Assembly: GCF_009914755.1 (NCBI RefSeq)
Contig: NC_060939.1
Length of the DNA stretch: 64,000 nucleotides
Reading direction: 5' to 3' (one strand)
Source of the DNA: the human T2T-CHM13v2.0 reference genome, Homo sapiens
Shown: positions 5,888-61,882 of the stretch, in pieces
Layout: every line of letters begins with the position of its first letter
Position numbering within the stretch: the stretch's first letter is position 1
Notes under the pieces: generated by a model
Seen by the model: only the letters and a program-made list of their open reading frames with translations
What the model was told of the DNA's origin: nothing
The model's database searches: none
Program-made: the position numbers and the translations under genes

Positions 5888-6417
5888 TCTTTTTTTTTAA
5901 CTTCTATTTTAAGTTCAGCATACATTTGCAGGTTTGTTATATAGGTAAACTTGTGTCATGGGGGTTTGTTGTACAGATTATTTTGCTATCCAGGTATTAA
6001 GCCTAGCAGCCATTAGTTATTTTTCTTGATCCTCTCCACTCGCCCTCTGCCCTCCAGTAGGTCCCAGTGTCTGTTGTTCCCCTCTATGTGTCCATGTGTT
6101 CTCATAATTTAGCTCCAACTTGTAAGTGAGAACATGTGGTATTTAGTTTTCTGTTCCTGCATTAGTTTGACAAGGATAATAGCCTGCAGCTCCATCCATG
6201 TTCCTGCAAAGAACATGATCTCATTCTTTTTTATGGCTGCCTAGTATTCCGTGGTGTATATGTTCCATATTTTCTGCAAGAACATGATCTCATTCTTTTT
6301 TATGGCTGCGTAGCATTCCACGGTGTATATGTTCCACATTTTCTATAAGAACATGATCTCATTCTTTTTATGGCTGCATGGTATTTAATGGTGTATATGT
6401 TCCACCTTTCCTGTAAG
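5888..6417 (-). mobile_element. 5'-truncated L1PA (older, ~L1PA13-like) 3' end
   Basis: T tract, then 'ttaagttcag...tgcaggtttgttatataggtaaacttgtgtcatgggg...gtgagaacatgtggtatttagttttctgttcctgcattagtttg'. Confidence 0.9.
6204..6417. repeat. Tandem triplication of a ~69-bp L1 segment
   Basis: 'aagaacatgatctcattcttttt(t)atggctgc..gtgtatatgttcca' starts at 6209, 6278 and 6347. Confidence 0.95.
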
Positions 6418-14779: not shown

Positions 14780-15600
14780 GTGAAAAATATGCAGGCCACG
14801 CTTCACTGCTCTTTGCATATACTGCAAAGAGGGAAAAAAAACCTTAAAAATTGCTTAGCTTTAATTGAGCAAAGGGATTCACATGTGATCTGAACTTGTG
14901 GTTCATAATTCCTCTAGACAGCTTCGGTTGCCGTGTGATGATCCTAATTAAATTATGTAACGGCACTGAACTAGCTAAGCTAAAGGGCCTGTTCTTTCAC
15001 ATCACCTGGTGACTTAACTCTTTACAGGACTCTGGGTTTGGGGCTTTGGTCTTCTACCACAATCTTGTGTGTTTTTTCATTGTTAAGGGAAGGAAAACAC
15101 AGTATTGATGGAATCCGCTTTAGAAGTTTCGGCCTGTAGGTGGCAGCATTGTAAGGTTTTGGAAGTCGTGAGCTCCCAGGTCTCTGCTTGCCTTTCCCCC
15201 AAGCCTCATCCACCCGTGCCACATCAGGGGAGCTAACATCACTATACGCTCATGTCAGGTAAAACTAAAATGGAGAGAAATGTCGTAGTCAAAAAATTAG
15301 GCTTTGTTCACTCCCGTTTGTGTTTCATTATATTTCTGATGACACGGTACATTTCTAATTCTGACCTGAGATTCAGCTAAAGGATTTTTCTCAGTAGTCA
15401 GGCGTCAACCCATGGCAAACCATACTTTTTCAAGATAGGCGTTTTACCAAGTAAAGAAAGGAAATTATTCTGGGGGAATAATTATTTAACTTAGGCATGC
15501 CTATTTTAATCACTTGGGAACAAGTTAGACGGCTTCGTGGGGCCATATAGAAATCACCTAACGAGGTCACCTCACAGTAATCTCAGTGTCCCTATAAAGG
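14780..15600. promoter_or_regulatory. Candidate conserved non-coding element / enhancer
   Basis: No recognisable repeat; several CpGs; TTAATTG, CTAATTAAATTA, palindromic TCACATGTGA. Motif evidence only. Confidence 0.35.
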
Positions 15601-15604
15601 TTGG

Positions 15605-15768
15605 CTTCCCTCTCTTCCTCCCTCCTTTTCTCCCTCCCTCGCTCCCTCTTTTTCTTCCTTTCTGCTTTCCTTTCTCCCTCTCCTTCTCCCTCCCTCCCTT
15701 CCTCCCTTCCTTCCTTCTTTCCTTCCTTCCCTCCCTCCCTCCCTCCCTCTTTTCCTTTCCTTTTCTCC
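15605..15768. repeat. Polypyrimidine (CT-rich; CCTT/CCCT) low-complexity tract
   Basis: ~160 nt almost entirely C/T on the + strand. Confidence 0.95.
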
Positions 15769-17934
15769 ATGTGCGGTCACCTTTCACTCAAGACCTGAGA
15801 TTACCTTTCTGATTTGGCAAGGGTGGAAAAGAAACGAAGGTTTACCAAGTAGAAAAGAAATAAAAACTTCACCAAATTTGATACATTTAATTTACAATTC
15901 ATGATTCATGTAGCTTTTAATGATGTATTGTTTTATGCAATATGAATTTCTCAGATTATATCAGTATAATACATAATAAATGCATATATGTGGATGCTAG
16001 CATGGATTTTATTGACTGTGATGTTTTCCTTAGACCCACAGAGATCTTGCAGTCTTACCTCGCACACTTCTCTCTGAAAGTTGTGCTTCAAAAACTTCCC
16101 TAGGTGATAATGGCAACAGTGTAGTGTAAGGACACTGGTTTCAGGCCTTGTATGAAGTCTTTGGTTAACTGAATCCTTGGGGAAAATCATTTCTGAGGTC
16201 AAGATTGACAAAATTGTTTAAGTATTATTGAAAATATAAAACAAAATTGTTTCCTCAATAAATATAATTAGCTGCATATACTGCAGTTTCAAGAGCAAGC
16301 ACTGATGTTAGGACCAGCTCTTTAAATAAAATAGGACCTCTGTGGTCTCTGGAGGGAACATGCATAAAGCAAAGTAAATGATTTTCTGTCAACACTAAGT
16401 AGACAGGTGCTTACATTGAACAGCATTCTAATATGTCTCTGAATATTTATGTCTTCTTTTTCAAATGCATTGCCCATGAATGTCACAGCTGTCAAAAATC
16501 TGTACACAAGAAGATAAAAAATGAAATTAATAAAAGGCAGATCAACATTTCGTTTGTTTGGAACACTTTTCCCCCTTACTGCTTTCTTTTTTCTTTCTTC
16601 TTTTTCTTCTTCTTCTTCTTTTTTTTTTTTTTAATTTTTAACTCAGCTGTGTTTTAGGATTTTGGTACATCTGCATGTTCTAAAAGGCCAACGGAAATGT
16701 AAGTTGACTAGTTGTATTTGGGCTGGCACCAGGGCCTGTCTCAGTATTTAAACACCAAAATAATCAATGGAATTAATGGCCAAGAGGAACAGGGTCTGAG
16801 GATTTTTCTAGCCATTTCCGCTGTCCATGCGCTTGGCTTGCTTGGGTGCCACAAACGAGATTCTGACAGGTTGTCACTGCCCTGACCTGAAACTCAAGTT
16901 TGTGAGGTGAGAGGCTCTTAAATCTTTTGGCTTCTGTAGCCCAGAGTTTTAGCTGTGCAGAGTTAGTGCCAAAACAAGCCATCATGTGCCCTCAGAGTTA
17001 TAAAGGAATTTGGTTTTCAGAGCAGAGATGACTAAATAGAATTGGTGGTAGATCAAAGCAATGAATAAAAAGGTCTATTTAGTCATCAGATCCCTGCCTC
17101 TCTGCTTCTCATGGTACTGAGAGAGCCAGTGTGTATAAAGAGCATGTGTTAAGATGAACTCAGCAGTCACTTGACAAGCATTTATTCATTAAGAAGCCGC
17201 ACATTTTGAGGTACCTGGTTGTTCTTATTAGTAAGTAACCCCCAGCAAAAATATCCCCCCAGATGTTTTCATATTTACTTTGCAATGTCCGAATGAATCA
17301 TTTGGCAACAAAGGAAAATACAGTTTAAAGATTGAATCAGGAATTTAAGCTCAGGAACTCTTTGTACTTTGTTTTGCCCTTGATGAGAATTTTTCTAAAT
17401 TAAAAACTCTCCAAATTGTCAAATCGGTGTTGCAAAAACCTCAGTTTAGTAAGATTTAGCATTTGGTTTCCAAATTTTGGTCATGTAATTGGTGTTTTAT
17501 TGATAACCGCAGATATGAACCAGATGTAATCAATATTGGTTTAGCTCAGATTTGATTTGGAGAACATACTGGTTGCTTTGATTTTTTGTTGTAATTATAA
17601 AAGTTAAAGAAAAACCCCACATAGATTCAGTTCTGATTTGAAGAGGGTCACTGCACATTTTTTTTTTCTTTTAAGAAAATTTTAGTTCGTTGGCAGTCTG
17701 ATTAAACAAATATTTGAGTATATTTATATTGGGAGTTGTACAAAAGTAGTTTGTAATATGGCTCAGTTCAAGTTCCTTTGATTTGTACTGTGCGATTGAT
17801 ATGGATCACTTCAACAAAATATCAACCTCTTTCAAATCAGTAATTTAACCTCTTGTCGGTAAAATTAGGGGTGATCAAATTGGCAGGGACCGTGAGGATT
17901 TTTTAGAGGTAGATGCTGATGCTCTTGTGGCTGG

Positions 17935-34620: not shown

Positions 34621-36231
34621 GAGGGATTAGAGGTACCAGTGTAGATCCAATGGGAAGTAAAAGGGAGGGGACCGGGCAGGCAATCCCCTACTATCACGTC
34701 CAAAGTAAAGTGTTCTTAAGAAAGGGGGACAGGGAAAGGGGATTACTAAAGTTCACAGGAGTGTCAGTCCTCCTAGGTGCTGGGAATATAGCAGCAAACA
34801 AAACAGATGAAAATTCCTGTCCTCATGGAAGTAGCATTTTAAGGTCCAAGGTTTAAAAAGTGCTATGTATAGCACCGTATCACAGTGCAAAATGCTGTTT
34901 CAGCATCTGAAAACACACCGAGAAAGCAAAATAGTGCATCTCTGCCCTCTGCCTTTATGGAATTTAAAGTGCACTGTGAAGTATAAAAGGAGAGGAAGAA
35001 GAAAGGGAACAGGTTTAGGGCACCCCTGCCATGTACCGCTCTCAGGGATGAAGATTAAGAGGAAAGAGTTTCCAGAACTTTGTTCATCTCCCTGTTCTCC
35101 CCAGACCCTCATCATCATTGTAAATAATGCAGCATGAGGAAGGTTCCCTGGCAGAAGCTGCATGGCTGTGGCCCCCTCCCTGTGCCTTGGTAGCATACAC
35201 CAGGCTAAGGCCTCACCAGCTTTACTGCCAGCCTCTCCTTTACAGGCTGTACATTCCAAGTGTCATGATGCAGGGAACCATTGTGCTAGCAGTGAGGGCA
35301 GCACCCTTTCTGACTGATCACAGTCAGCCTGTGGTGAATCCCTTCGCTTAGTCTAAGTGATGCATTTTGTAAAACCACACATTCTGGGTTTAACGCACGG
35401 GGTTTTCACTGCCACATCCGTCAATCAGTTTCAATCACTTGCCAATCAGGTTAACAGAACCAGAAGCCAAGAATCTGCCCAACGCAGGCAAAGACCTAAT
35501 GGGTTTGTCTGTCAAATGCATCCTAATCCTGTGTTTCAGTGAAATGTTTTGAGCCAACTAACAACTACAGAATGAGTGACTCAACTTTTTTCTCTTATTT
35601 TAAAAACAGAAAACTATTAGAGACAGAAATGCACTCTGGTGAATAAAGGGCAGGACATTAAATTGGCAGAACTTCATAGTCTAGGTATGCTTATTTAGAC
35701 TAATTGAAGGATTAGACAATTGGGCCTAAGGCTGTATTTGTTCTGGTCAAGAAAATTGTGTGTTAAGAGCCTTAGTAATATTTTGATTAAGCCTAGATGG
35801 AAACCAGAATGAACCAACTAATATTTTTAAATGTATTTTTTTCCTTCTCAGCAAAAAGTAAATAGAGAAATGTCTGTGAGGTCAGATTTGTGGATTTGAG
35901 TTTGATATGAGCCAAGGATTTTACCACATCTCGGTGCCACTGGCCTTAGCTACTTGTGCCAGTTATCAATGAATTGTCCCTCAGCTCCAAATTCACTTAT
36001 TACTGACTGATCTGCAAAATATAGGTGAGCGTTTTAAATATTTTTCCTTTTCTTGCTTGCACCATGATAAGCTATGTTTATTGAGGGCACTGGGAAGACA
36101 CTGCAGGAGGAAGGACTTTTCCTTCCTGGTTCCTGTTCGCTTCTATTGGCAGACCCCTATGGCAGAGATGGCATCTCAAGCATCTGGCTCCTATAGCACA
36201 AGTGTCTTCTCCAGTGCCCAGTTTCTACACC

Positions 36232-36344
36232 CAGGACCACCTTCATGGGCATGCAGCCTGTGCAGTCACTCAAGGCCCTATGATTGCTTAGTGCTCTGCT
36301 GTTGCTGTCTTGTACTAGGCCCTGCAATTATCTAGTCCGTTCTG
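36232..36344 (+). mobile_element. MER91A-like hAT-Tip100 MITE, internally deleted
   Basis: 'caggaccaccttcatgggcatgcagcctgtgcagtcactcaaggccc...tgctctgctgttgctgtcttg...ctaggccctgcaattatctagtccgttctg'. Confidence 0.65.
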
Positions 36345-36745
36345 CCTTTATCTCAAGGCAGCTTCTCCAATGCCATGCTCTGTGACATGGGCTGCTTCTC
36401 CAGCACCTGCTTCCAACAGGGTACTGTGGTCAGCAGCAACCAGTGTCCAACAACTTTCCCAGTACGCCTCCCTGTGAATAGCTTTCTCTATCACACAGCA
36501 ATTGAGGCATTTTGTGGTCCCTTTCTGCTCTGACCTTAGTTTCACTTGAGAAAATTGAGCCCTCTTTCAGCATTGGGCTTGACAAACCAGATGGCAGCAC
36601 TCCTCATGGGTTTACTCAGAGGCAGGGGGTCCTGAGGACTGCGATGTACATCCAGCAGTCCTGCAAAGGAAGGCAGAACACTAAATTGGAGAACAAAGGA
36701 AGGAAGCAGACAGTGCTATGGCAATCAGAAGCAGTCAATAATCTA

Positions 36746-36777
36746 TAGTAGTAGTAGTAGTAGCAGTAGTATAGTAG
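36746..36777. repeat. (TAG)n trinucleotide repeat, imperfect
   Basis: tagtagtagtagtagtagcagtagtatagtag. Confidence 0.85.
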
Positions 36778-37689
36778 GGAAGGCTGGGGGAAGCCATTAA
36801 GGGCTGAAGTGAGGGAATATTGGATCCCACTTATGGTGATGTCAGCTGTTGATATGGCTTCATATCCTAACTTTAAGGTACAGGACAAGTCCATCACCTG
36901 TTTCAGCTACACATTCACATACTGACACCAGAATAGATGCTGCTGGCTTGTCCTGTCCTTCTTCCTGTCCATCTTCCCTTACTCCATGTCCTGGGGCAGA
37001 AGGTAATTATGCTGCTCATCTGCCTTCATGGGTAGGCAGCAACATCACATCAAATCCCTAGACCCTCAACTGCGCTGAAATAAACTGCTAATTGCTGAGG
37101 AACTAATCACTTTCTATAATTTAGGATTCCCTCAACCCACGTATGTTGATTTATGGTTTATACTTGTATTAACTGAGTTTTATGAACTTATTAAAAAATA
37201 GATACAAATATTAATCCCTGCTAGCTAGTTTTCTCTCCATAAAAATTTTGTGAGGATGTTGCACAAACATTGGAAGCATCTTAAGAGCTTTAGCAAATAA
37301 TATTATTTGGCAGTAAGAGCGATCAATTTTCTATCCTATCTCCCTCATAGACTGTAGCTGTGAAAATTAGTTTTACCTTGTATTTTGTTGTCTTAAATGT
37401 CAGTGTGTGTTATAGACTCTCTGGGATTTAAAGTTTGCAACATCAACAAAGTTCTATGCTAAATACATTGAAAATTGGGATAAGTATCTAAAATGGGTCT
37501 CTACTTTCAAATGACTTTCATGTTCTCTTTAAAAAGTGGTGGTCATAAAGACAATTCAACAAATTAAATAGAAAAAATTTTAAAAAAGGAAAAAATAAAA
37601 TTGAACACATGTAAAGTATATTCAGTGATGGGCTAGAAGGATTACATAAGCAATTTCTCATTTATTATTCGTGACTTTTCTATAGTTGG

Positions 37690-38620
37690 AACATTTTAAA
37701 ACTCTTCAAAATAATGCTAATTTTGAAAAATATAGTACTATACACAGTTTAGTTTTCCAACCCTTGATGTTTTTAACTGTACTGCACCTGTCTGTCTTCA
37801 AACCTGGAATATTCTCCAGCATTGCCTTTTTAAATTTCATTTCTCTGCCATTCCACCAATTTCTTTTGCTGGAATTTATATTAAATGTACATTGGGTCCT
37901 CATAAGTTAATTTTGTTGTCTAAACTACTATTTCATATTATTTAATTTATTAATCTTTTGGTGCTGCATTCTGGAGCAATTTCTCAGTCAGACACGGGCC
38001 AGGCAGTCTCAGGGCAGTTTGATGGCACTGTAGTTGATGGGGGAGGCCTGCAGCTTGGGGGATGCAGGGCTGTTCAGGAGGGTGGGTTGTGCTTGGGCTT
38101 GCATGCCTCTGACCTCCATGCCCTCCTCCATCCCTGCAGCTGAGGGCACCCGGCGCACAGACCCACCTGCAGGCAAGCCCGCCATGGTGGCCAATCGCAA
38201 GGGTGGCCTGAAGCTGAATGCCATCTATGCCAAGCTCCAGGTGGTGTTGGAGAAGCGAGCTCAGGCTGGCTCCCACGCCGGGAGCAGCCTGCCCTCCAAC
38301 TTACCCATTCTATATTTAACAATATGAAGTTTAAGTTTAATTTGTGAGATTTAAAATTTCAATTATTTTTTATAGTTTTCCATTTTCTGGATTTCTAATT
38401 GTTTCTTTTTCACATCCACTTAACATTGTTTACTTCTGTTTTCTTTTATGATATCTTTTCTTTTTAAACATTTAGGATTGGGGTTAGTTTTTCAAAAATT
38501 CTTTGAGTCCTAACCATAATCTTTTTTGAAAAAGAAATTTGTAGATTATGCTACTATTTTCATTTTATCTGTAGTGAATTAATCTTCCAGCTATGAATTT
38601 TGTTGGCTGTGTCTGGCCCA
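37690..38620 (-). mobile_element. Old L1ME-like fragment (ORF1 region), interrupted by the GC-rich insert
   Basis: Left flank 'tcttttggtgctgcattctggagcaatttctcagt' and right flank 'ctgccctccaacttacccattct...ttttccattttctggatttctaattgtttctttttcacatc' read as contiguous antisense L1M. Confidence 0.6.
37990..38290 (+). pseudogene. CASZ1: Unprocessed fragment of CASZ1 (castor zinc finger 1): ~150 bp intron-like sequence plus ~150 bp of N-terminal coding exon
   Basis: Translates to [46 protein letters not shown], versus recalled human CASZ1 (MDLGT)[48 protein letters not shown]. Similarity begins exactly after a pyrimidine tract and AG (38138-38139). This is an ectopic fragment, not the gene itself. 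Confidence 0.88.
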
Positions 38621-39165
38621 CCCGCCTTCCTTCCTTTCTTACTCTTTCCTTCTCTTGCTTCCTCCCTTTATTCCTTTCTTCTTTCTCTATGCTCATTCTC
38701 TTTTTTACTTGCCTTATGGTTGTCTCCACTTTATCTCCTAGGTCCTGAAGTTCAAATCCAGGTCTTACACTAGCAACTCAGGGCGGATATTCCACAGCTC
38801 CATTAGATGCTAGATTAGATATTAGATCTCGCCACCAAGCTAGTAGGTGAGTAGGGCCAGGTTTAGGCAGCATGACTCTGTCTGCTCTCTCTCACTCCCT
38901 GTAAAATGTAGCCCTTGGTTGCAGTCAATAGGAGCATTATTCAGACTCTTGAGTGGAGATTCGGCCATGTGGGAGGTAAGAGAAGAAGAGAGTCCTACTT
39001 AGTACTTGTTCTTGTGCAGTCAGCCTTGTTTTCATCTCCTGGGAATGCAATTAGTTTCTGTTTCTCTATAGAAGTTAAACTAAACTCTGTGTCTGAGGGG
39101 TGCCTCAAACATGGATTTGAATGATGGTCTTGACCAGTAGTCTCAAGGTCTTATGTAATAGTCTT

Positions 39166-50254: not shown

Positions 50255-53200
50255 CCTTTATTTAGTGATACATAATAGTTGTACATATTTATGGGGTACT
50301 GTGAAATTTGTTACATGCATAGAATGTGTAATGATCAAGTCAAGATATTTAGGGATCCATCACCTCGAATGTTTATCATTTCTATGTTTTAGAAGCATTT
50401 CAAGTCATCTCTTTTAGCTATTTTGAAATGTATAATACATTGTTGTTAACTAGTCACTCTATTCTGCTATAGAACATTAGGACTTACCTTTTTTTAATCT
50501 GTGTGTTTGTACCCATTAACCAACCTCTTTTTATTTCCCCTTCCCACCTACTCACCCTTTCCAGCCTCGGGTATTTTTCATTCTCCCCTCCACCTCCATG
50601 AGATCGACTTTTTTAGCTTCCACATATGAAGGAGAACATGGAATATTTGTCTTTCTGTGCCTGGCTTATTTCACTTAACACAATGACCTCCAGTTCCATT
50701 TATGGTTGCCACGCATAACATGATTTCCTTCTTTTTTATGGCCAAATAGTACTCAATTGTGTATATATGCCACAGCTGCTTCATTCATTTGTCATTGATG
50801 GACACTAAGATTGATTCCACTTCTTTGCTATTGTGAATAGTGCTATAATAAATATGAGGGTGCAAGTATCCCTTTGATATACTGATTTCCTTTCCTTTGA
50901 ATCAATACCCAGTGGTGGGATTGCTTGATAGTATGGTGGTTCTATTTTTTAGCTTTTTGAAAAATCTGCATGCTGTTTTCCATAGTGGCTGTACTAATTT
51001 ACATTCATGCCAAGAGTTCATTATATTTTTTGGGTATTAGTTTCTTGCCAGATGAATAGTTTGCAAATATTTTCTCCCATTTAACAGGCTGTATCTTTAT
51101 TCTGTTGATTGTTTCCTTTGCTGTGTAGAAGATTTTTAGTTTAAAACAGTCCCATTTGTCTCTTTTTGTTTTGGTTGCCTGTGCTTTTGAAGTCTTAACC
51201 ATAAAAATCTTTGCATAGACTTATGTCCTTTTCCCCTATGTTTTCTTCTAGTTGTTTTATAATTTTGGGTCTTATGTTTAAGTCTTTAATCCACATTGAG
51301 TTGGGTTTTGTGGGGGTAAGGATAGGGGTCCAGTTTCATTCTTCTGCACATGGATATCCAATTTTCCTAGCACCATTTATTGAAGAGGGTATCCTTTCCC
51401 CAATGTATGCTCTTGGCATCTTCGTTGAAAATCAGTTGCCTGTAAATACGTGGATTTTCCTGGGTTCTTTATTCTGCTTTATTGTTTCATGTGTCTGTTT
51501 TTATACCAATACTATGCTTTTTTGGTTGCTATAGCCTTGTAATATATTTGGAAGTCAGGTAATGTGATGCCTTGAGCTTTATTCTTTTTGCTTAGGATTG
51601 CTTTGGCTATTTGGGTACTAATTTGGTTCCATATACATTTTAGGATTTTTAAAATATTTCTGTGAAAAATGGTATTGATATTTGATAGAGATTGCATGAA
51701 GTCTGTAAATTGCATTGAGTAATATGGTCATTTTAATGATTTTAATTCTCTCAATCCATAAGCATGAGATGTCATTTTATGTGTTTGTATCCTCCTCAAT
51801 TTATCTTTTCAGTATTTTGTAGTTTTCCTCATAAAAGTCTTTCACTTCCTTGGTTAAATTTATTCTTAGTTTTTTTAGCTATTGTAAATGGGATTGCTTT
51901 ATTGATTTCTTTCTCTGCTAGTTCTTTTTTGGTATATAGAAACACTATTTTTGTATGTTGATTTTGTATCCTGCAATTTTACTGAATTTGTCAGATATAT
52001 GAAATTTTTTGGCTCAGTCTTTAGGTCTTTCTAGATGTAAGATCATGTCATCTGCAAAGGGGGACAATTTAACTTCTTCTTTCCACCTCGGATGCTATTT
52101 ATTTCTCTCTCCTGCCTGATTTCTTTGTCTAAGACTTCCAGTATTATATTGAATAGGTGTAGTGAAAGTGTGCATCCTTGTCTTCAACCAGTTTTTCAAG
52201 AAAAGGCTTTCTGCTTTTCCCCATTCGGTATGATGTTAGCTGTGGGTGTGTGATATATATGACCTTTATTACGTTGCGGCATGTTCTTTCTGTGCCTAGT
52301 TTGTTGAGAGTTTTTATCATGAAGGGATGTTGAAGTTTTTCAAATGCTTTTACTGTGTCTACTGAGATGATAATTTGATTTTTGTCCTTTATTCTGTTAC
52401 GTGATATGTCATGTTCATTGATTTGCATATGTGGAATGATCCTTACATCCATGGGATAAATCCCATTTGATCATGGTGTATAATATTTTTAATGCACTGT
52501 TGGATTCAGTTTGCTAATATTTTGTTGAGGATTTTTGTGTCTGTGTTCATCAGGGATATTTGCCTTTAGTTTTCTTTTTTGTTCCACCCTTGTCTGGTTG
52601 GAATTACTCTGGAATCAGAGTAATGCTGTTATTGTGGAATAAGTTAGGAAGAATTATCTCCTCTTCAATTTTTTGAAACACCTTAAGGAGAATTGGTGTT
52701 AGTTCTTCTTTGTAAGTTTGGTAGAATTCAGCAGTAAAGCCGTCTGGTCTTGGAATTTTCTTTGTTGAGAGACTTTGTATTACTGATTCAATTTCATTAC
52801 TTGTTATTTGTCTGTTCAGATTTTCTATTTTTTTCTGATTCTATCTTGGTAGGTTATATGTGTCCAGAATTTTATCCATTTCCTCTAGGTTTTCAAGTTT
52901 TTTAGTGTATGGTTGTTTATAATAGTCTCCAATAATCTCTTGTATTCCTGTGGTATTAATTCTGATTGCTTATTTGGATGTTCTCTTTCTTTTCCCTTGG
53001 TTAGTCTAGCTAGCAGCTTATTGATTTTGTTTATCTTTTCAAAAAACCAATTGTTTTGTTTAGTTGATTCTTTGTATTTTTTTTAGTTTCTATTTTTATT
53101 TAGTTCTGCTCAGGTCTTTATTATTTCTTTCTTTCCATGTACTAACTTCAGGTTTGGTTTGTTTTTGCCTTTCTAGTTCCTTGAGATGCATTGTTAGATT

Positions 53201-56200
53201 GTTTATTTGAAATCTTTCTACTTTCTTGACATAGGCATTTATTGCTATAAACTTCCCTCTTAGCACTGCTTTTGCTGTATTGCATAGATTTTGATATGTT
53301 GTGTTTCCATTTTTATTTGTTTCAGAAATATTTTGATTTCTTTCTAAATTTCTTTCTTGGCCCATTGATCATTTAGGAACATTCTGTTTAATTTTTCATG
53401 CATTTATACAGTTTCCAAAGTTCTTCTTGTTATTGATTTCTAGTTTTACATTGTGGCCTGAGAAAATACTTGATATGATTTTGATTTTTAAAAATTTGTT
53501 GAGACATGTTTTGTGTCCCAACGTATTGTCTAAACTGGAAAATGTTCTAAGTGCTGATGAGAAGAATGTGTATGCTGTGGCTGTTTAATGAAATGTTCTG
53601 TAAATGTCTGTAAGGTCCATTTGGTATAAAGTGCAGCTTAATCCACTGTTTCTATGTTAATTTTCTGCCTAGATGATGTGTTTAATTCTGAGGGTGGAGT
53701 ATTGAAGTCCCCAAGTATTATAGTATTGGAGCCTATCTCTCCCTTTAGATCTAACATTTGCTTTATATATCTGGGTGCTGTGGTGTTGAGTGCATATATG
53801 CTTAGAAGTATTATATCCTTTTACTAAATTGAGCCCTTTATCATTATGTAATGATCTTTTTTGCTGTTTTTTTACTTAATTTGTTTAATCTGATATGAGT
53901 ATAGCTATACCTGTTCACTTTTGGTTTCCGTTTGTATGGAATATCTTTCCATTCCTTTACTTTCAGTTAATATGTGTCTTTACAGGTAAATTGCATTTAT
54001 TGGAGGGAGCATATGGTTGGGTCATGTTTTTTGATCCATTCAGGTAGTCTATATCTTTTAAGAGAAAAGTTTAATTCATTTATATTTAAGGTTATTATTG
54101 ACATTTGAAGGCTTATTTGTGTTATTTTCTCAATTAATTTCTGGTTATTTTGTATACCCTTTATTCCTTTCTCTCTTACTGTTCAGTTAACATTGTGGTT
54201 TGGTGGTTTTCTGTAGTGGTAACATTTGAGTCCTTTCTTTTCTTTATTTGTGTGTTTACTCTACCAGTGGGTTTATATTTTAATGGGTTTTCATGATAAT
54301 AGATTTTGTCCCTTTGCTTCCAGGTTTAAGACTCCCTTAAACATTTCTTATAGGATGAGTCCAATGGTGATGAATTTCCTCAGCTTTTGCTTGTCTGGGA
54401 GAGACTTTATTTCTCTTTCATTTATGAAGGATAACCTTCCAGGATATAATGTTCTTAGCTAGCAATTTTTTTCCAACCCTTTGAATATATCATCCCATTT
54501 TCTTTTGGTCTTTAAGGTTTCTTCTTTTTAATTTTTAATTTTTGTGCATACATAGCACATATATATATTTATAAGGTCCATTTGATATTTTGATACTGGC
54601 ATACAATGCATAATTATCACATCAAGGGATACTATTACCTCAACATTTATCCTTTTTTGTGTTACAAACAATCCAATTATACTTTTAGTTATTTTTAAAT
54701 GTACAACAAATTATTGTTGATTATGATACATATACACAATGGAGTACTATTCAGCCATGGAAAAGAATGAGATCCTGTCATTTGAAACAACATAGATAGA
54801 GCTGGGAGTCATTATGTTAAGTGAAATAAGCCAGGCCTAAGAAGACAAACTTTGCATTTTCTCACTTATTTGTGAGATCTAAAAATTAAAACAATTGAAC
54901 TCATGGAGCTAGAGTAGAAAAATGGGTAACAGAGGCTGGAAAGGATAGTAGGGTTGGGGGAGTGGAGTTGGTTAATGGGTACAAAAATATAGTTAGATAG
55001 CATGGATAACATCTGGCCTGTAAGGTTTCTACTAGGAAACCCACTATTAAGCTGAAGGTGGTTTGCTTATAAATGAGTAGATGCTTTTCTCTTGCTATTT
55101 TTAGAATTCTCTCTTTGTCTTTGACTTTTGGCAGTTTCACTATAATGTGCAAATGGAGAAGATCTTTTCAAATTGCATTTATTTGGGGATTGCTGAGCTT
55201 CCTTTATCTGGATATCTAAATCTCTTGCTAGACTTCAGAAGTTTTCAGTTATTATTTTGTTAAGTAAGTTTTCTATTCTTTTTGTTTTCTGTTTGCCTTC
55301 TGACACACCTGAGATTTAAATATTTGGTTACTTTATGATGTTCCATATGTCATATAGGCTTTTAAAATTCATTCTTTTTTTAAAAAAAACTTTTGTCTGA
55401 CTGGATTATTTCAAAAGAGTTGTTTTCAAGTTCTAAAATTCTTCTTTCTGTTTGATCTAGTCTATTGCTTAAGCTTTTAAATGTATTTTTTATTTCATTC
55501 AATAAATTATTGGTTTCCAGAATTTTTGTTTGGTTACTTTTTTTTAAATGACATCTATGTCGTTGGTAACTTCTCATTCATATCCTCAATTGGTTTTCTG
55601 ATTTTTTTGTATTATTTACCTGCTTTATCTTGCATCTCATTGAGATTCTTTAATATTATTATTTTGAATTCTTTTGGGGGGATTTTATAAATTTTTGTTT
55701 CATTGGAATCTATTGATAGGAAATTATTTTTTTTCCTTTGGAAGTGTCATATTTCCCTGCTTTTTCATATTTCCTGTGTCCTTACATTGACATCCACACA
55801 TCTGTTGTAACAGTTGCTTCTTCCAATTTTTTAAGTTTGCTTTCATAGGGGAGGATTTTTTCTAAAGATGTATCAATGGTGTTGGTTGGGTAGGGTACTT
55901 TGGCTTTGACTCTGGGTATGTGCAGTAGTGTTTTCTCTGTATGATCTTTGGCTGTAAACAGTGTCAGTGTTGTCTATAATTTTCTCAGTGGCTTACGGTG
56001 TGTTTGTTAGTGGAGGCTACGGTGAATTTTTGCTGATGATAAGGATGCCAGGTGGGCCAGTCCTTGGGCTCCAGTGGTGGTAGCAATGATCTGAGCCTGT
56101 CTTTCTTGGGTCACAGGATGACATATGATAAGGACAATGTTAGCGGATTCAGGCAGATTGATTGTTAGGTCTTCAGGCATCTTGCTCAAGTGCTGGCAGT

Positions 56201-57727: not shown

Positions 57728-58676
57728 TAATTGTTTTGAGCCTTCTGTGTCTCACAGATTATTTTAAAGCATGCTGTTTAATTTCCAAATATTTGGTCAT
57801 TTCCAGGTATCTTTCCATTATTTATTTTTTGTTTAATCAATTATAGTCTGAGACCACATTTTGTACAGTTTCTATTCCTTCAAGTTTATTTTCTTGTTTC
57901 ATGCCCCCACTCCCGACCCAAAAACAAAAAGCAAAATCTATCTTGGTGACTGTTTCACATGCACTTGGGAAGAATGTGTATTCTGCTGTTGTTGGGTGGC
58001 ATATTTTATAAATATCTGTTAGGTTAAGTTGGCTGATGGTGTTGGTTAAGTCTCCAATTTCCTTACTGATTTTCTGCCTACTTATTCTGTTAATTACTGA
58101 AAGAAAAATGTTGAAGTTCCTAACTCTAGTTGTGAGTTCATCTATTGTCTATTTACTTTTTTCCCCATTTCTTAGTACTTGCCTCATATACTTTGAAGTT
58201 CTATTGTTAATACACATTTACAATTTGTGCCCCTTGTAGAATTGATTTCATTATTATCCAGTGTCCCTCCTTATCCTTAATAATATCCCTTGTTGTGAAG
58301 TTTATCTGAAATTAATATAGTCATTCCGGGTCACTTTTAGTTAGTGGTTGCATGCTATAATTTTTACCATCCTTTTACTTTATCTAATCTGTGTCTTTAC
58401 ATTTAAAGTATGTTGCTTTGAGATAGCATATTGCTTTGTGTTGCATTTTTTGTTCATTCTGACAGCCATAGGTGTGTTTAGATCATTCAGATTTAAAGTG
58501 ATTATTGATATAGCTGGATTAAAATCTACCAACTTGCTAGCTTTTTCCTATTTTGTTTTATTAATTCTTTGCTTTCTTCTCCTCTTTTTTGTATTCCAGG
58601 GTTTAATTAAATTTTTTTTTATGATTTCACTTTATGTCCTCTGTTTATTTACTATTTATACTTCTTTAAAAAACTT

Positions 58677-59955: not shown

Positions 59956-61882
59956 AAAAATTTATTTGTGTATATCTAAGTTTCTGTCCTATATGATATT
60001 CTTTTACAACTTTTTTATTAAAAACTTTCCTTATCATGCTGCAGTGATGTATTCTTTCTGCCTAAACTATTTCCTTTATAATTTCTGTAGAATGTCTGAT
60101 GCAAATGGTTTCCTCAGTGTTTTGCTTTGTTTTCTGAGAAATTCTTTAGTTACTCTTAGTTTTTTAAAAGATATTTTTACTGACTATAAAATAATGGCTT
60201 GACAGTTATTTTAAGTGTAAAACTTCATTGTCTCCTTTCTTATTTTCTGATGTTTATTGTAATAATTATCTTGTTACTTTATGGCTAATGTTCTTTCTCC
60301 CTATGACTGCTCTTAAGATTTTCTCTTTGTCTTTCATTAAATATGACATGACAGGTATGTTTTCATTTAAATTTTTTTTATCCTGCTCGATATCCTGTGA
60401 GCTTTTTAAACCGGTGAGTTTGACATCACTTGTTAAATTTGGACCATTCTTGGCCATTATATCTTTATATTTTTTTCATTGTCCCATTAATGCCCTTGCT
60501 ACTTCTTCCTTCTGGATTCTAAATATGCATATGTTAGACCATTTGAAATTATCCAATAGACCTTGGATTCACAGTTTTGTTTGTTCCCTGTTCTTTTTTT
60601 CTGTTTGTGTTTCTGTTCGGGTAATTTCTACTGACATATCTTCAAGCTCACTCATTCTTTCATTGGCTGTGTCAAGTCTACTTATGAAGCCATCAAAGAA
60701 ATTCTTCATTTCTATGACCATGTATTTGATTTCTAGAGTGTTTTTAGCACTGGAATTTTTCTAATAGTTTTCATCTTTGTGCTGCAATTACCTATCCAAT
60801 TTTGTATGTCATCCATCTTTTCCATTAGAGCTGTTAACATATTAGTTATCGATATTTTATATTCCTTGTCCAATATTTGGTCATATTTAAGTCTGGTTCT
60901 GATGATTGCAATGTCTCTTTTGTTTTTCCTTGTCTTTTAAATTTTTTATGTTTTATAATTTTTTGTTGAAAACTAAACATGTTGAATAGGGCAATAATAC
61001 TTAGGTAATCTTTTTAATATAGAGATAAACATGGCTTTCCTTTCGCTAGGACTTTAGTGTGGGTGTTTGTGTTAATCTAGTCAAGATTTAGATTGGATAT
61101 GAAGTTTGTTATGGCTGTGGTTATCCTCAGTGCATCAAATTTCCCTGTGTGATTTCTTGCTTATCCCTTTGGCTTTGGAACTTCCCTGTATGCTGCTTGT
61201 CAGGGACAGTCTGTTTCTTGCAGCTCTCTCAGTTATATTTCATTGTTATTTTTATTCAATATGTGGTGGTGGGTGGTATGGAGGGATATTCTCTGATGTT
61301 TCGATTAAACTTCAGTATTAGGGAGGCCTAGATGTAATGCTAGGCCTAGCATATCTTCATACACATTCCTCAAGAAGAGAATTTTTCCTCTGCTCCTTCT
61401 TCTACTTCAGTTGTAGTAGATTTCTATCATTGTCTTTATGTTACAATTTTGATGGCCTTCCTATTGCATATTGAGGCTTATCTTCCTTAGGGGTGATGGT
61501 TTGGGGAAGGTTTAATATGGTTTCTGTACTTCTCCCACAACCAGCACCATAGGACAAGATTTCTCAGAACTTTTCTTAACTTTCCTTATGAGTTTGCTAG
61601 AGAAAAAATTTGCAAGAAGGTACAAGCTCCTTTATGTTGGTGATCATTTTTGGGATTTTGCACTCACACACTAGGTCACACTAAGCCCTCAGCATTTGTT
61701 AGAAATGTTCTAGCCTAATCTGTTTACCAGCTTATATAGTGTTTGGGAATGTCTTTCCCAGGTAAACAAGACTCTGTTCCTGTTTCTTCCTGTAAGCACA
61801 TATCTCTCTCTAGATTTGTAGTCAGTCCTTTGTCTGTCAACCTGAGTGCTATGATGAGTTCAATAAAAGTCATTTTTTTCAC

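What the first reader, a model, noticed from the sequence alone, without database searches (positions are those of the whole stretch)
37990..38290. Ectopic, intron-containing CASZ1 fragment captured inside an old L1, with no poly(A) and no TSD
Seen: a sharply bounded ~300-bp GC-rich island in very AT-rich DNA. Its second half (from 38140) encodes [50 protein letters not shown]. Knowledge (recalled): this aligns to CASZ1 residues ~6-57 at about 40 of 50 positions, with a 2-codon in-frame deletion. The first five residues (MDLGT) are absent and are replaced by 'ctctgacctccatgccctcctccatccctgcAG', a branch point, pyrimidine tract and acceptor, so the donor molecule appears unspliced. The L1 text seems to resume with little loss (…atttctcagtc | tgccctccaac…), with a cagtc/cagcc micro-similarity at the two junctions. 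Inference: this is not a processed pseudogene. It is more likely a templated insertion, in which genomic DNA or reverse-transcribed pre-mRNA patched a germline double-strand break.
Basis: partly seen in the sequence, partly recalled or inferred. Interest (0 to 1): 0.85.

Follow-up and report, generated by a model that had tools for sequence, protein, structure and literature searches.

The report
Old CASZ1 intron-exon patch in L1
A 300-base copy of an intron-exon junction of the chromosome 1 gene CASZ1 sits inside an ancient L1 repeat on chromosome 15, most likely a patch used to mend a broken chromosome in an early monkey ancestor; this kind of scar is already known.

Summary
Window 37990-38289 is a sharply bounded GC-rich island. 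Apart from itself, it matches one place in the genome: chr1:10209007-10209312, minus strand (272/300 aligned bases plus one 6-bp deletion).

That place is the last 150 nt of a ~28.3-kb CASZ1 intron plus the first 156 nt of the exon that starts at residue 6. Homology stops abruptly at both ends. There is no poly(A)/(T), no target-site duplication and no junction microhomology.

The flanks are the antisense strand of an old L1 ORF1. Three paralogous L1 copies run straight through the site, so the piece was inserted with about 0-5 bp of target loss.

Amino-acid states and ~10% divergence suggest copying after the anthropoid stem and before crown catarrhines, roughly 30-45 Myr ago. This date is an inference.

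Best reading: an interchromosomal templated insertion at a germline double-strand break, i.e. a class 2 templated sequence insertion or distant repair-mediated duplication. It now decays neutrally. Whether the template was DNA or unspliced pre-mRNA cannot be decided from sequence; I lean slightly to RNA.

This is a new member of a known kind. It may already be listed in a published supplement that I could not open.

The parts
37990..38139 (+). Copy of the last 150 nt of the ~28.3-kb CASZ1 intron that precedes the exon starting at residue 6. It includes a branch-point-like CTGAC, a pyrimidine tract and a CAG acceptor.
   Evidence: Alignment to chr1 (L002 1657-1806, minus strand) shows 11 differences in 150. 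The upstream coding exon lies 28.3 kb away.
38140..38289 (+). Copy of the first 156 nt of the 489-nt CASZ1 exon (residues ~6-57), with a 6-bp in-frame deletion. The rest of the exon was not copied.
   Evidence: 17 differences in 150 aligned bases plus the 6-bp gap. Exon limits were read.
37721..37989 (-). Left flank: old L1, antisense, coding side of ORF1 (start of the RNA-binding domain and end of the trimerization domain).
   Evidence: Aligns to paralogs L028 1457-1704 and L031 1514-1722, with scores about 6 sd above 30 shuffles. ORF1-like pieces of the paralogs hit window 37893-37804 (E 0.005) and 37852-37769 (E 8e-4) on the minus strand.
38290..38783 (-). Right flank: continuation of the same antisense L1 (the N-terminal side of ORF1 and upstream).
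   Evidence: Aligns to L028 1711-2184, directly after the left-flank match that ends at 1704. L029 and L031 are also colinear. L031 1095-1775 is L1 ORF1 (E 1e-7) next to ORF2 residues 16-135.

Best explanation
A double-strand break arose in the germline of an anthropoid or stem-catarrhine ancestor, in a long-dead L1 on what is now chr15 (within antisense ORF1). It was closed by end joining with a ~306-nt patch templated from the CASZ1 locus on chr1. The patch spans the 3' end of a 28-kb intron and the first third of the following coding exon.

The donor stayed intact. The patch was joined bluntly, without target-site duplication, poly(A) or microhomology, and with about 0-5 bp of target lost. 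Since then the copy has decayed as neutral DNA: it has lost half of its CpGs, deleted 6 bp and replaced conserved residues.

Shown: donor, boundaries, junction anatomy, host repeat, direction of copying, and lack of coding constraint. Inferred: that a break was the cause, the date, and the template. I lean slightly (about 55:45) to a cDNA of unspliced nascent CASZ1 pre-mRNA over chromosomal DNA.
For: 1. There is a unique donor with sharp ends. The genome holds only the island itself and chr1:10209007-10209312. The alignment starts at AGACAC (37990) and ends at GCAGCC (38289), with unrelated sequence beyond both ends.

2. The donor is CASZ1. 407 proteins match at E<=0.001, and all those named among the 120 best listed are castor zinc finger 1 or unnamed or hypothetical models. 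AEGT is residue 6 after MDLGT. The MDLGT exon is 28.3 kb upstream. The exon continues 333 nt beyond the copied part.

3. Direction is chr1 to chr15. The exon is conserved across vertebrates, whereas the chr15 piece interrupts a repeat that is continuous in 3 paralogs.

4. There are no target-primed reverse transcription hallmarks. The longest A run is 2 and the longest T run is 4 within 60 bp of the junctions. The longest word shared by the last 30 and first 30 flank bases is 6 nt, not at the junctions, and is matched or exceeded in 110 of 1000 shuffles. Donor and flank share 0 nt at either end.

5. The insertion is much younger than the L1. The flanks are ~68-69% identical to paralogs, while the patch is 90.7% identical to its donor. 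The patch is also on the opposite strand to the L1.

6. Dating. The copy has the anthropoid R of EKR (the other mammals printed have a different residue there, most of them G). It keeps A (GCC) where all 7 catarrhine proteins and human have P. It has CAG, one step from the E of non-catarrhines, where catarrhines have D.

7. Decay is neutral. 14 of 28 substitutions are at CpG. The copy has 8 CpG against 16 in the donor. Residues identical in all sequences printed (C of TRC, K of KRK, C of AIC) are replaced.

8. Size and anatomy fit published classes. Experimental templated insertions at breaks are 73-414 bp, enriched for transcribed DNA and reduced by reverse-transcriptase inhibitors. Class 2 lacks TSD and poly(A) (PMC5110952, parts 1-2 of the full text read). 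Pace et al. report 254 interchromosomal duplicons that interrupt TEs, distant ones averaging 302 bp (PMC2671141, abstract and sections 6, 7 and 10 read).
Against: No orthologous empty site could be examined, so the pre-insertion sequence, the exact target loss and the date rest on ~68%-identical paralogs and on a few amino-acid states known only from proteins.

After ~10% divergence, a short poly(A), a short TSD or 1-3 nt of microhomology could have been erased or blurred.

Nothing in the sequence distinguishes an RNA from a DNA template. In Pace et al., 17 of 29 sampled interchromosomal cases did carry poly(A)/(T) tails, so distant duplicons as a class are a mix with retrotransposition.

I had no annotation of chr1. 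An alternative CASZ1 transcript in which the 150 nt are exonic is therefore not excluded.
Confidence: 0.85

Rival explanations
1. This is an L1-mediated (target-primed) retrocopy of an unspliced or intron-retaining CASZ1 RNA, whose poly(A) tail and target-site duplication were later lost.
For: The fragment lies within a transcription unit and carries intron sequence, so an RNA origin is possible. In Pace et al., 17 of 29 sampled interchromosomal duplicons had poly(A)/(T) tails. Class 1 templated insertions exist.
Against: There is no A or T run longer than 4 at either end and no TSD. The flanks are contiguous in 3 paralogs with no duplicated target. The fragment ends in the middle of an exon, 333 nt before its donor site and far from any 3' end, so there is no polyadenylation site to prime from.
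Confidence: 0.06
2. The L1 reverse transcriptase switched template to CASZ1 pre-mRNA and back while the L1 itself was inserting, so the element was chimeric from birth.
For: The piece lies inside an L1 with L1 sequence on both sides.
Against: The patch is 90.7% identical to its donor, while the L1 flanks are only ~68-69% identical to paralogs. The patch carries an R that one search shows only in anthropoid CASZ1 proteins. The CASZ1 sense strand is opposite to the L1 sense strand, whereas a single cDNA would keep one strand.
Confidence: 0.02
3. This is the remnant of a larger segmental duplication or ectopic gene conversion between chr1 and chr15.
For: None beyond the shared 300 bp.
Against: Homology stops within a base or two at both ends. 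300-bp flank queries on each side find only themselves in the genome. The flanks belong to an L1 that continues through the site in paralogs.
Confidence: 0.02

Closest known systems
Class 2 templated sequence insertions / TSIPs (Onozawa & Aplan; PMC5110952, full-text parts 1-2 read)
   Same: The template is a distant locus and the donor is retained. The size falls in the 73-414 bp range. The donor is transcribed and partly intronic. There is no TSD, poly(A) signal or tail, and the joins are of the end-joining type.
   Different: This one is ancient and presumably fixed, not a human polymorphism or an induced event. Its junctions show neither microhomology nor evident filler. The reverse-transcriptase dependence shown experimentally cannot be tested here.
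Distant (interchromosomal) repair-mediated duplications that interrupt transposable elements (Pace, Sen, Batzer, Feschotte 2009; PMC2671141, abstract and sections 6, 7, 10 read)
   Same: The detection logic and anatomy are identical: a TE split by a unique sequence that has one other copy in the genome. 254 interchromosomal cases were reported, with distant ones averaging 302 bp. 'Partial exon/intron' donors are listed among the proximal set.
   Different: The authors treated only proximal (<5 kb) cases as confident repair events and left the interchromosomal ones unresolved. I could not open their Table S1, so whether this locus is among the 254 is unknown.
Processed pseudogenes / L1-mediated retrocopies
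   Same: It is a gene-derived fragment at an ectopic site.
   Different: It contains intron sequence, lacks poly(A) and a TSD, and comes from the 5' part of the gene rather than the 3' end.
Endonuclease-independent L1 insertion, and NUMT-type capture at breaks (as summarised in PMC5110952)
   Same: Foreign nucleic acid is used as a patch at a break, without a TSD or poly(A).
   Different: The patch is nuclear genic sequence, not L1 or mitochondrial DNA.

Membership tests
Class 2 templated sequence insertion (break patch) | The insert is templated from a distant, unique genomic locus that remains intact | tested here: met
   There is a single other copy at chr1:10209007-10209312. The donor exon is intact and conserved.
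Class 2 templated sequence insertion (break patch) | No target-site duplication of 5 bp or more at the junctions | tested here: met
   The longest shared word is 6 nt, lies 16-22 nt away from the junctions, and is within chance (110 of 1000 shuffles reach 6 or more). Paralogs show no duplicated target.
Class 2 templated sequence insertion (break patch) | No poly(A) tract or polyadenylation-linked 3' end | tested here: met
   A runs are at most 2 and T runs at most 4 near the junctions. The insert ends in mid-exon.
Class 2 templated sequence insertion (break patch) | End-joining signatures at the junctions (microdeletion, microhomology or filler) | tested here: inconclusive
   There is 0 nt of microhomology at both ends. 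Target loss of about 0-5 nt and a possible 1-nt filler can be judged only from ~68%-identical paralogs.
Class 2 templated sequence insertion (break patch) | RNA intermediate (reverse-transcribed template) | not testable with these tools
   The sequence is compatible with either pre-mRNA or DNA. No spliced junction is present to prove RNA.
Processed pseudogene / target-primed retrocopy | Introns removed | tested here: not met
   150 nt of intron are contiguous with the exon.
Processed pseudogene / target-primed retrocopy | 3' poly(A) and flanking TSD | tested here: not met
LINE-1 (host element of the flanks) | Homology to L1 ORF1 and/or ORF2 in colinear order | tested here: met
   The evidence is indirect, through paralogs. 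The flanks align to L031. L031 1095-1775 matches a Pfam-verified L1 ORF1 at E 1e-7 and lies next to ORF2 residues 16-135 on the same strand. Paralog ORF1 pieces hit window 37769-37893 (E 8e-4 and 0.005). Direct searches of the window with a young L1 found nothing near the island.

The most novel reading that the evidence does not exclude
The patch was reverse-transcribed from unspliced, nascent CASZ1 pre-mRNA and ligated into a germline break. That would make it a fixed, datable natural example of RNA-templated break repair in the primate lineage.

The patch also delivered an intact branch point, pyrimidine tract and acceptor in the sense orientation of the lncRNA DPH6-DT, in whose intron it lies. 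It could therefore be used as a cryptic exon start.
Probability: 0.3. Interest if true: 0.5.

Novelty: new member of a known kind. Interest (0 to 1): 0.3.

Why it matters
The locus is a clean, well-bounded fossil of an interchromosomal templated insertion. The donor, the junctions and the host repeat are all resolved, and primate genomes can test the approximate date.

Such cases show that chromosome breaks in the germline were patched with copies of distant genic sequence tens of millions of years ago. They also mark sequence that gene-finding or pseudogene pipelines could misread as a coding fragment.

The locus adds no new mechanism. No CASZ1-derived fragment or pseudogene on chr15 turned up in the searchable literature.

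Tried and rejected
- **Direct repeat identification of the flanks failed.** 300-bp flank queries and a 30-mer with up to 3 mismatches found only themselves in the genome. A self-comparison of the flanks with the 64-kb window found only a CT-rich low-complexity match.
- **Pfam found no L1 domain.** This held on 149 stop-to-stop frames of 40 aa or more in 31.6-45 kb, and on 26 of the 63 frames of 20 aa or more listed from the flanks and paralogs.
- **A young full-length L1 (L010) gave no significant protein or DNA match within 36.5-39.8 kb**. The L1 identity came out only through weak translated hits to paralogs.
- **160 kb of chr1 was useless as a repeat sample**, with 1 L1 protein match.
- **The 'cagtc/cagcc' similarity was rejected as evidence**.
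- **Rejected readings:** segmental duplication, template switching at L1 birth, and a processed pseudogene; see the rival explanations.
- The whole-genome search with the long chimpanzee protein failed twice with a machine error, so a shorter protein was used.

Full report
**Observation.** Window 37990-38289 is a 300-bp block of 0.6-0.67 GC set in DNA of 0.20-0.38 GC.

**Donor.** I searched the window's own genome with 37950-38330. It returned only the locus itself and chr1:10209007-10209312 on the minus strand, at 89% identity, covering query positions 41-340, which is window 37990-38289 (2 candidates, both scored).

In the pairwise alignment, homology begins at AGACAC (37990) and ends at GCAGCC (38289). 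The sequences on either side are unrelated.

Within the block there are 28 substitutions in 300 aligned positions: 19 transitions and 9 transversions, with 14 at CpG sites. Eleven fall in the upstream 150 positions and 17 in the downstream 150. There is also one 6-bp gap in the chr15 copy.

**The donor is the CASZ1 intron-exon junction.**
- On chr1 the downstream part belongs to a 489-nt open exon bounded by a CAG acceptor and a GT donor.
- Its translation matched 407 proteins at E<=0.001 among 1529 candidates. The named ones among the 120 listed are 'castor zinc finger 1' or 'zinc finger protein castor homolog 1' from primates to amphibians. The chimpanzee protein is 98% identical.
- In models that start at the conventional methionine, the protein begins MDLGT followed by AEGTRC. 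The exon therefore starts at residue 6, with the codon for A split across the splice site.
- A local tblastn of the chimpanzee and gorilla N-termini against 160 kb fetched upstream found ...EFGTKEKRMDLGT at chr1 about 10237457-10237504 (E 1e-4).
- The intervening intron is therefore about 28.3 kb. The 150 nt copied upstream of the acceptor are its 3' end.
- The copy stops 156 nt into the exon. The remaining 333 nt and all later exons are absent.
- A CASZ1 protein query finds the chr15 piece (77% identity, residues 4-57, E 3e-13) and otherwise only CASZ1 exons on chr1 (4 matches among 17 candidates).

**Junctions.** Within 60 bp of either junction the longest A run is 2 and the longest T run is 4. 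The last 30 and first 30 flank bases share at most a 6-nt word. That word lies 16-22 nt from the junctions, and 110 of 1000 shuffles match or exceed it. The bases just outside the donor segment share 0 nt with the chr15 flanks at either end. There is thus no poly(A), no target-site duplication and no microhomology. The 'cagtc/cagcc' similarity carries no weight.

**Host element.** Direct tests for a repeat failed at first.
- Flank queries and a 30-mer with up to 3 mismatches found only themselves.
- Pfam found nothing in 149 frames.
- The ORF1 and ORF2 of a young full-length L1 were checked by Pfam: Tnp_22_trimer, Transposase_22 and Tnp_22_dsRBD for ORF1; Exo_endo_phos and RVT_1 for ORF2. In the window they matched only at 237-1523, 6124-6288, 50616-55387 and 57840-58449.

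A translated search with a 69-aa frame of the left flank then gave six weak hits, E 0.07-0.7. Three of them proved to be paralogs.
- In L028 (chr9) the left flank 37721-37988 aligns to 1457-1704 and the right flank 38290-38783 to 1711-2184. Each scores about 6 sd above 30 shuffles.
- L029 is colinear in the same way on its minus strand.
- L031 is colinear for both flanks once shorter queries are used.
- The two flanks are therefore neighbours in one old repeat. At the site the paralogs differ from the window by roughly -1 to +5 nt.

L031 identifies the repeat. Its positions 1775-1095 (minus strand) align to L1 ORF1 residues 145-369 (stop-to-stop numbering, 24.5% identity over 245, E 1e-7). ORF2 residues 16-135 follow at 682-324 on the same strand. 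L029 matches ORF1 residues 143-176 across the equivalent point (E 0.05).

ORF1-like pieces of L031 and L028 hit the window's minus strand at 37893-37804 (E 0.005) and 37852-37769 (E 8e-4). They also hit known L1 ORF1 regions elsewhere in the window.

The island therefore interrupts the antisense strand of an old L1 ORF1, at about residues 152-161 of the reference frame, inside the trimerization domain (146-188). The flanks are only ~68-69% identical to the paralogs, so the L1 is far older than the patch.

**Direction and date.** The chr1 exon is conserved across vertebrates, while the chr15 piece splits a repeat. Copying therefore went from chr1 to chr15.

Three codons are informative when the copy is set against the proteins.
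- The copy shares CGA (R) in EKR with the catarrhines and platyrrhines. The lemur and the other mammals printed there have a different residue, most of them G.
- The copy keeps GCC (A) where human and all 7 catarrhine sequences have P, while platyrrhines and most other mammals have A.
- The copy has CAG where catarrhines have D (GAC in human) and all others have E. The outgroup codons were not seen. If E there is GAG, the copy is one step from E and two steps from D.

By parsimony the copy was made after the R arose and before the two changes shared by catarrhines.

Kimura two-parameter distance is about 0.10 overall and 0.08 for the intron half, computed by hand from the counts. From recalled genome-wide human-macaque (~6.5%) and human-marmoset (~11%) divergences, this points to roughly 30-45 Myr. 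Two biases act on that figure: half of the changes are at CpG, which inflates it, and the donor exon is constrained, which deflates it. This date is an inference from few sites.

**State of the copy.** CpG count fell to 8 (observed/expected 0.26) against 16 (0.48) in the donor. Ten of 50 aligned residues differ. They include the C of TRC, the K of KRK and the C of AIC, all three identical in every sequence printed. Two codons are deleted. The 97-codon open frame is unremarkable for GC-rich DNA. I see no sign of coding constraint.

**Mechanism.** The anatomy is as follows:
- a unique distant donor that is left intact;
- a ~300-nt insert;
- blunt junctions without a TSD or poly(A);
- an internal, unspliced piece of a transcription unit;
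- insertion into a pre-existing repeat with little target loss.

This is the anatomy of a class 2 templated sequence insertion. Onozawa and Aplan describe experimental insertions at induced breaks of 73-414 bp. These are enriched for transcribed sequence and reduced more than three-fold by reverse-transcriptase inhibitors. They also describe germline class 2 polymorphisms without TSD or poly(A), whose templates include intronic sequence (PMC5110952, full-text parts 1-2 read).

Pace et al. used TEs as markers in exactly this way. They found 1,136 interrupted TEs carrying a unique duplicon, 254 of them interchromosomal. Distant ones averaged 302 bp, and 12 of 29 sampled interchromosomal cases lacked poly(A)/(T) tails (PMC2671141, abstract and sections 6, 7 and 10 read).

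I therefore read the island as an ancient member of this class. Whether the template was chromosomal DNA (synthesis-dependent copying or a captured fragment) or a cDNA of nascent pre-mRNA is not decidable here. The genic, exon-overlapping origin and the experimental reverse-transcriptase dependence make me lean slightly to RNA.

**Rivals.**
- Target-primed retrocopy: disfavoured by the absent tail and TSD and by the mid-exon 3' end.
- Template switching when the L1 was born: disfavoured by the age gap, the R that one search shows only in anthropoid proteins, and the opposite strands.
- Segmental duplication or gene conversion: excluded by the sharp ends and the unique flanks.

**Prior description.**
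- The RefSeq table supplied with the finding lists no feature at this place.
- Full-text searches for CASZ1 with 'pseudogene' gave 51 papers. None of the 10 listed had CASZ1 in its title or abstract, and none was opened.
- A search for 'CASZ1P' gave 0 papers.
- A search for CASZ1 with DPH6 gave 1 paper, on copy number in rectal cancer (listing only).
- The supplementary table of Pace et al., which may list this very locus, could not be opened.
- I had no repeat or pseudogene annotation tracks.

**Verdict.** It is an ordinary though unusually tidy member of a known class.

Noticed in passing
window 38100-38245: The captured CASZ1 branch-point-like CTGAC, pyrimidine tract and CAG acceptor (38139/38140) are intact. 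They point in the same direction (+) as the lncRNA DPH6-DT, whose intron contains the window. A CAG|GTGGTG donor-like site follows at about 38238. A cryptic exon is conceivable, but the supplied annotation shows no such exon.
   Followed up: no
window 37100-37350 and 36000-37100: The antisense L1 around the island shows ORF1 homology but no ORF2 where it should continue to the left. Instead, a ~1.1-kb block of 0.45-0.55 GC occupies 36000-37100. The L1 is therefore 3'-truncated or interrupted there, which is unusual for L1.
   Followed up: partly
window 50616-55387 (minus strand), also 237-1523, 6124-6288, 57840-58449, 60587-60712: These are other L1 remnants. The one at 50.6-55.4 kb covers nearly all of ORF2 (residues 9-1283 in pieces, 40-69% identity) plus ORF1, on the minus strand.
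   Followed up: partly
window 36741-36775; 38600-38720: There is a short (AGT)n microsatellite at 36741-36775. A CT-rich low-complexity stretch at 38600-38720 resembles the one at 15600-15785.
   Followed up: no
L028 (chr9:137780288-137783383) 640-1316: In this paralog a different antisense L1 ORF2 fragment (residues 1018-1252) lies about 140 bp from the ORF1-like copy. The two are not colinear with a single element, so this is a nested or juxtaposed L1.
   Followed up: no
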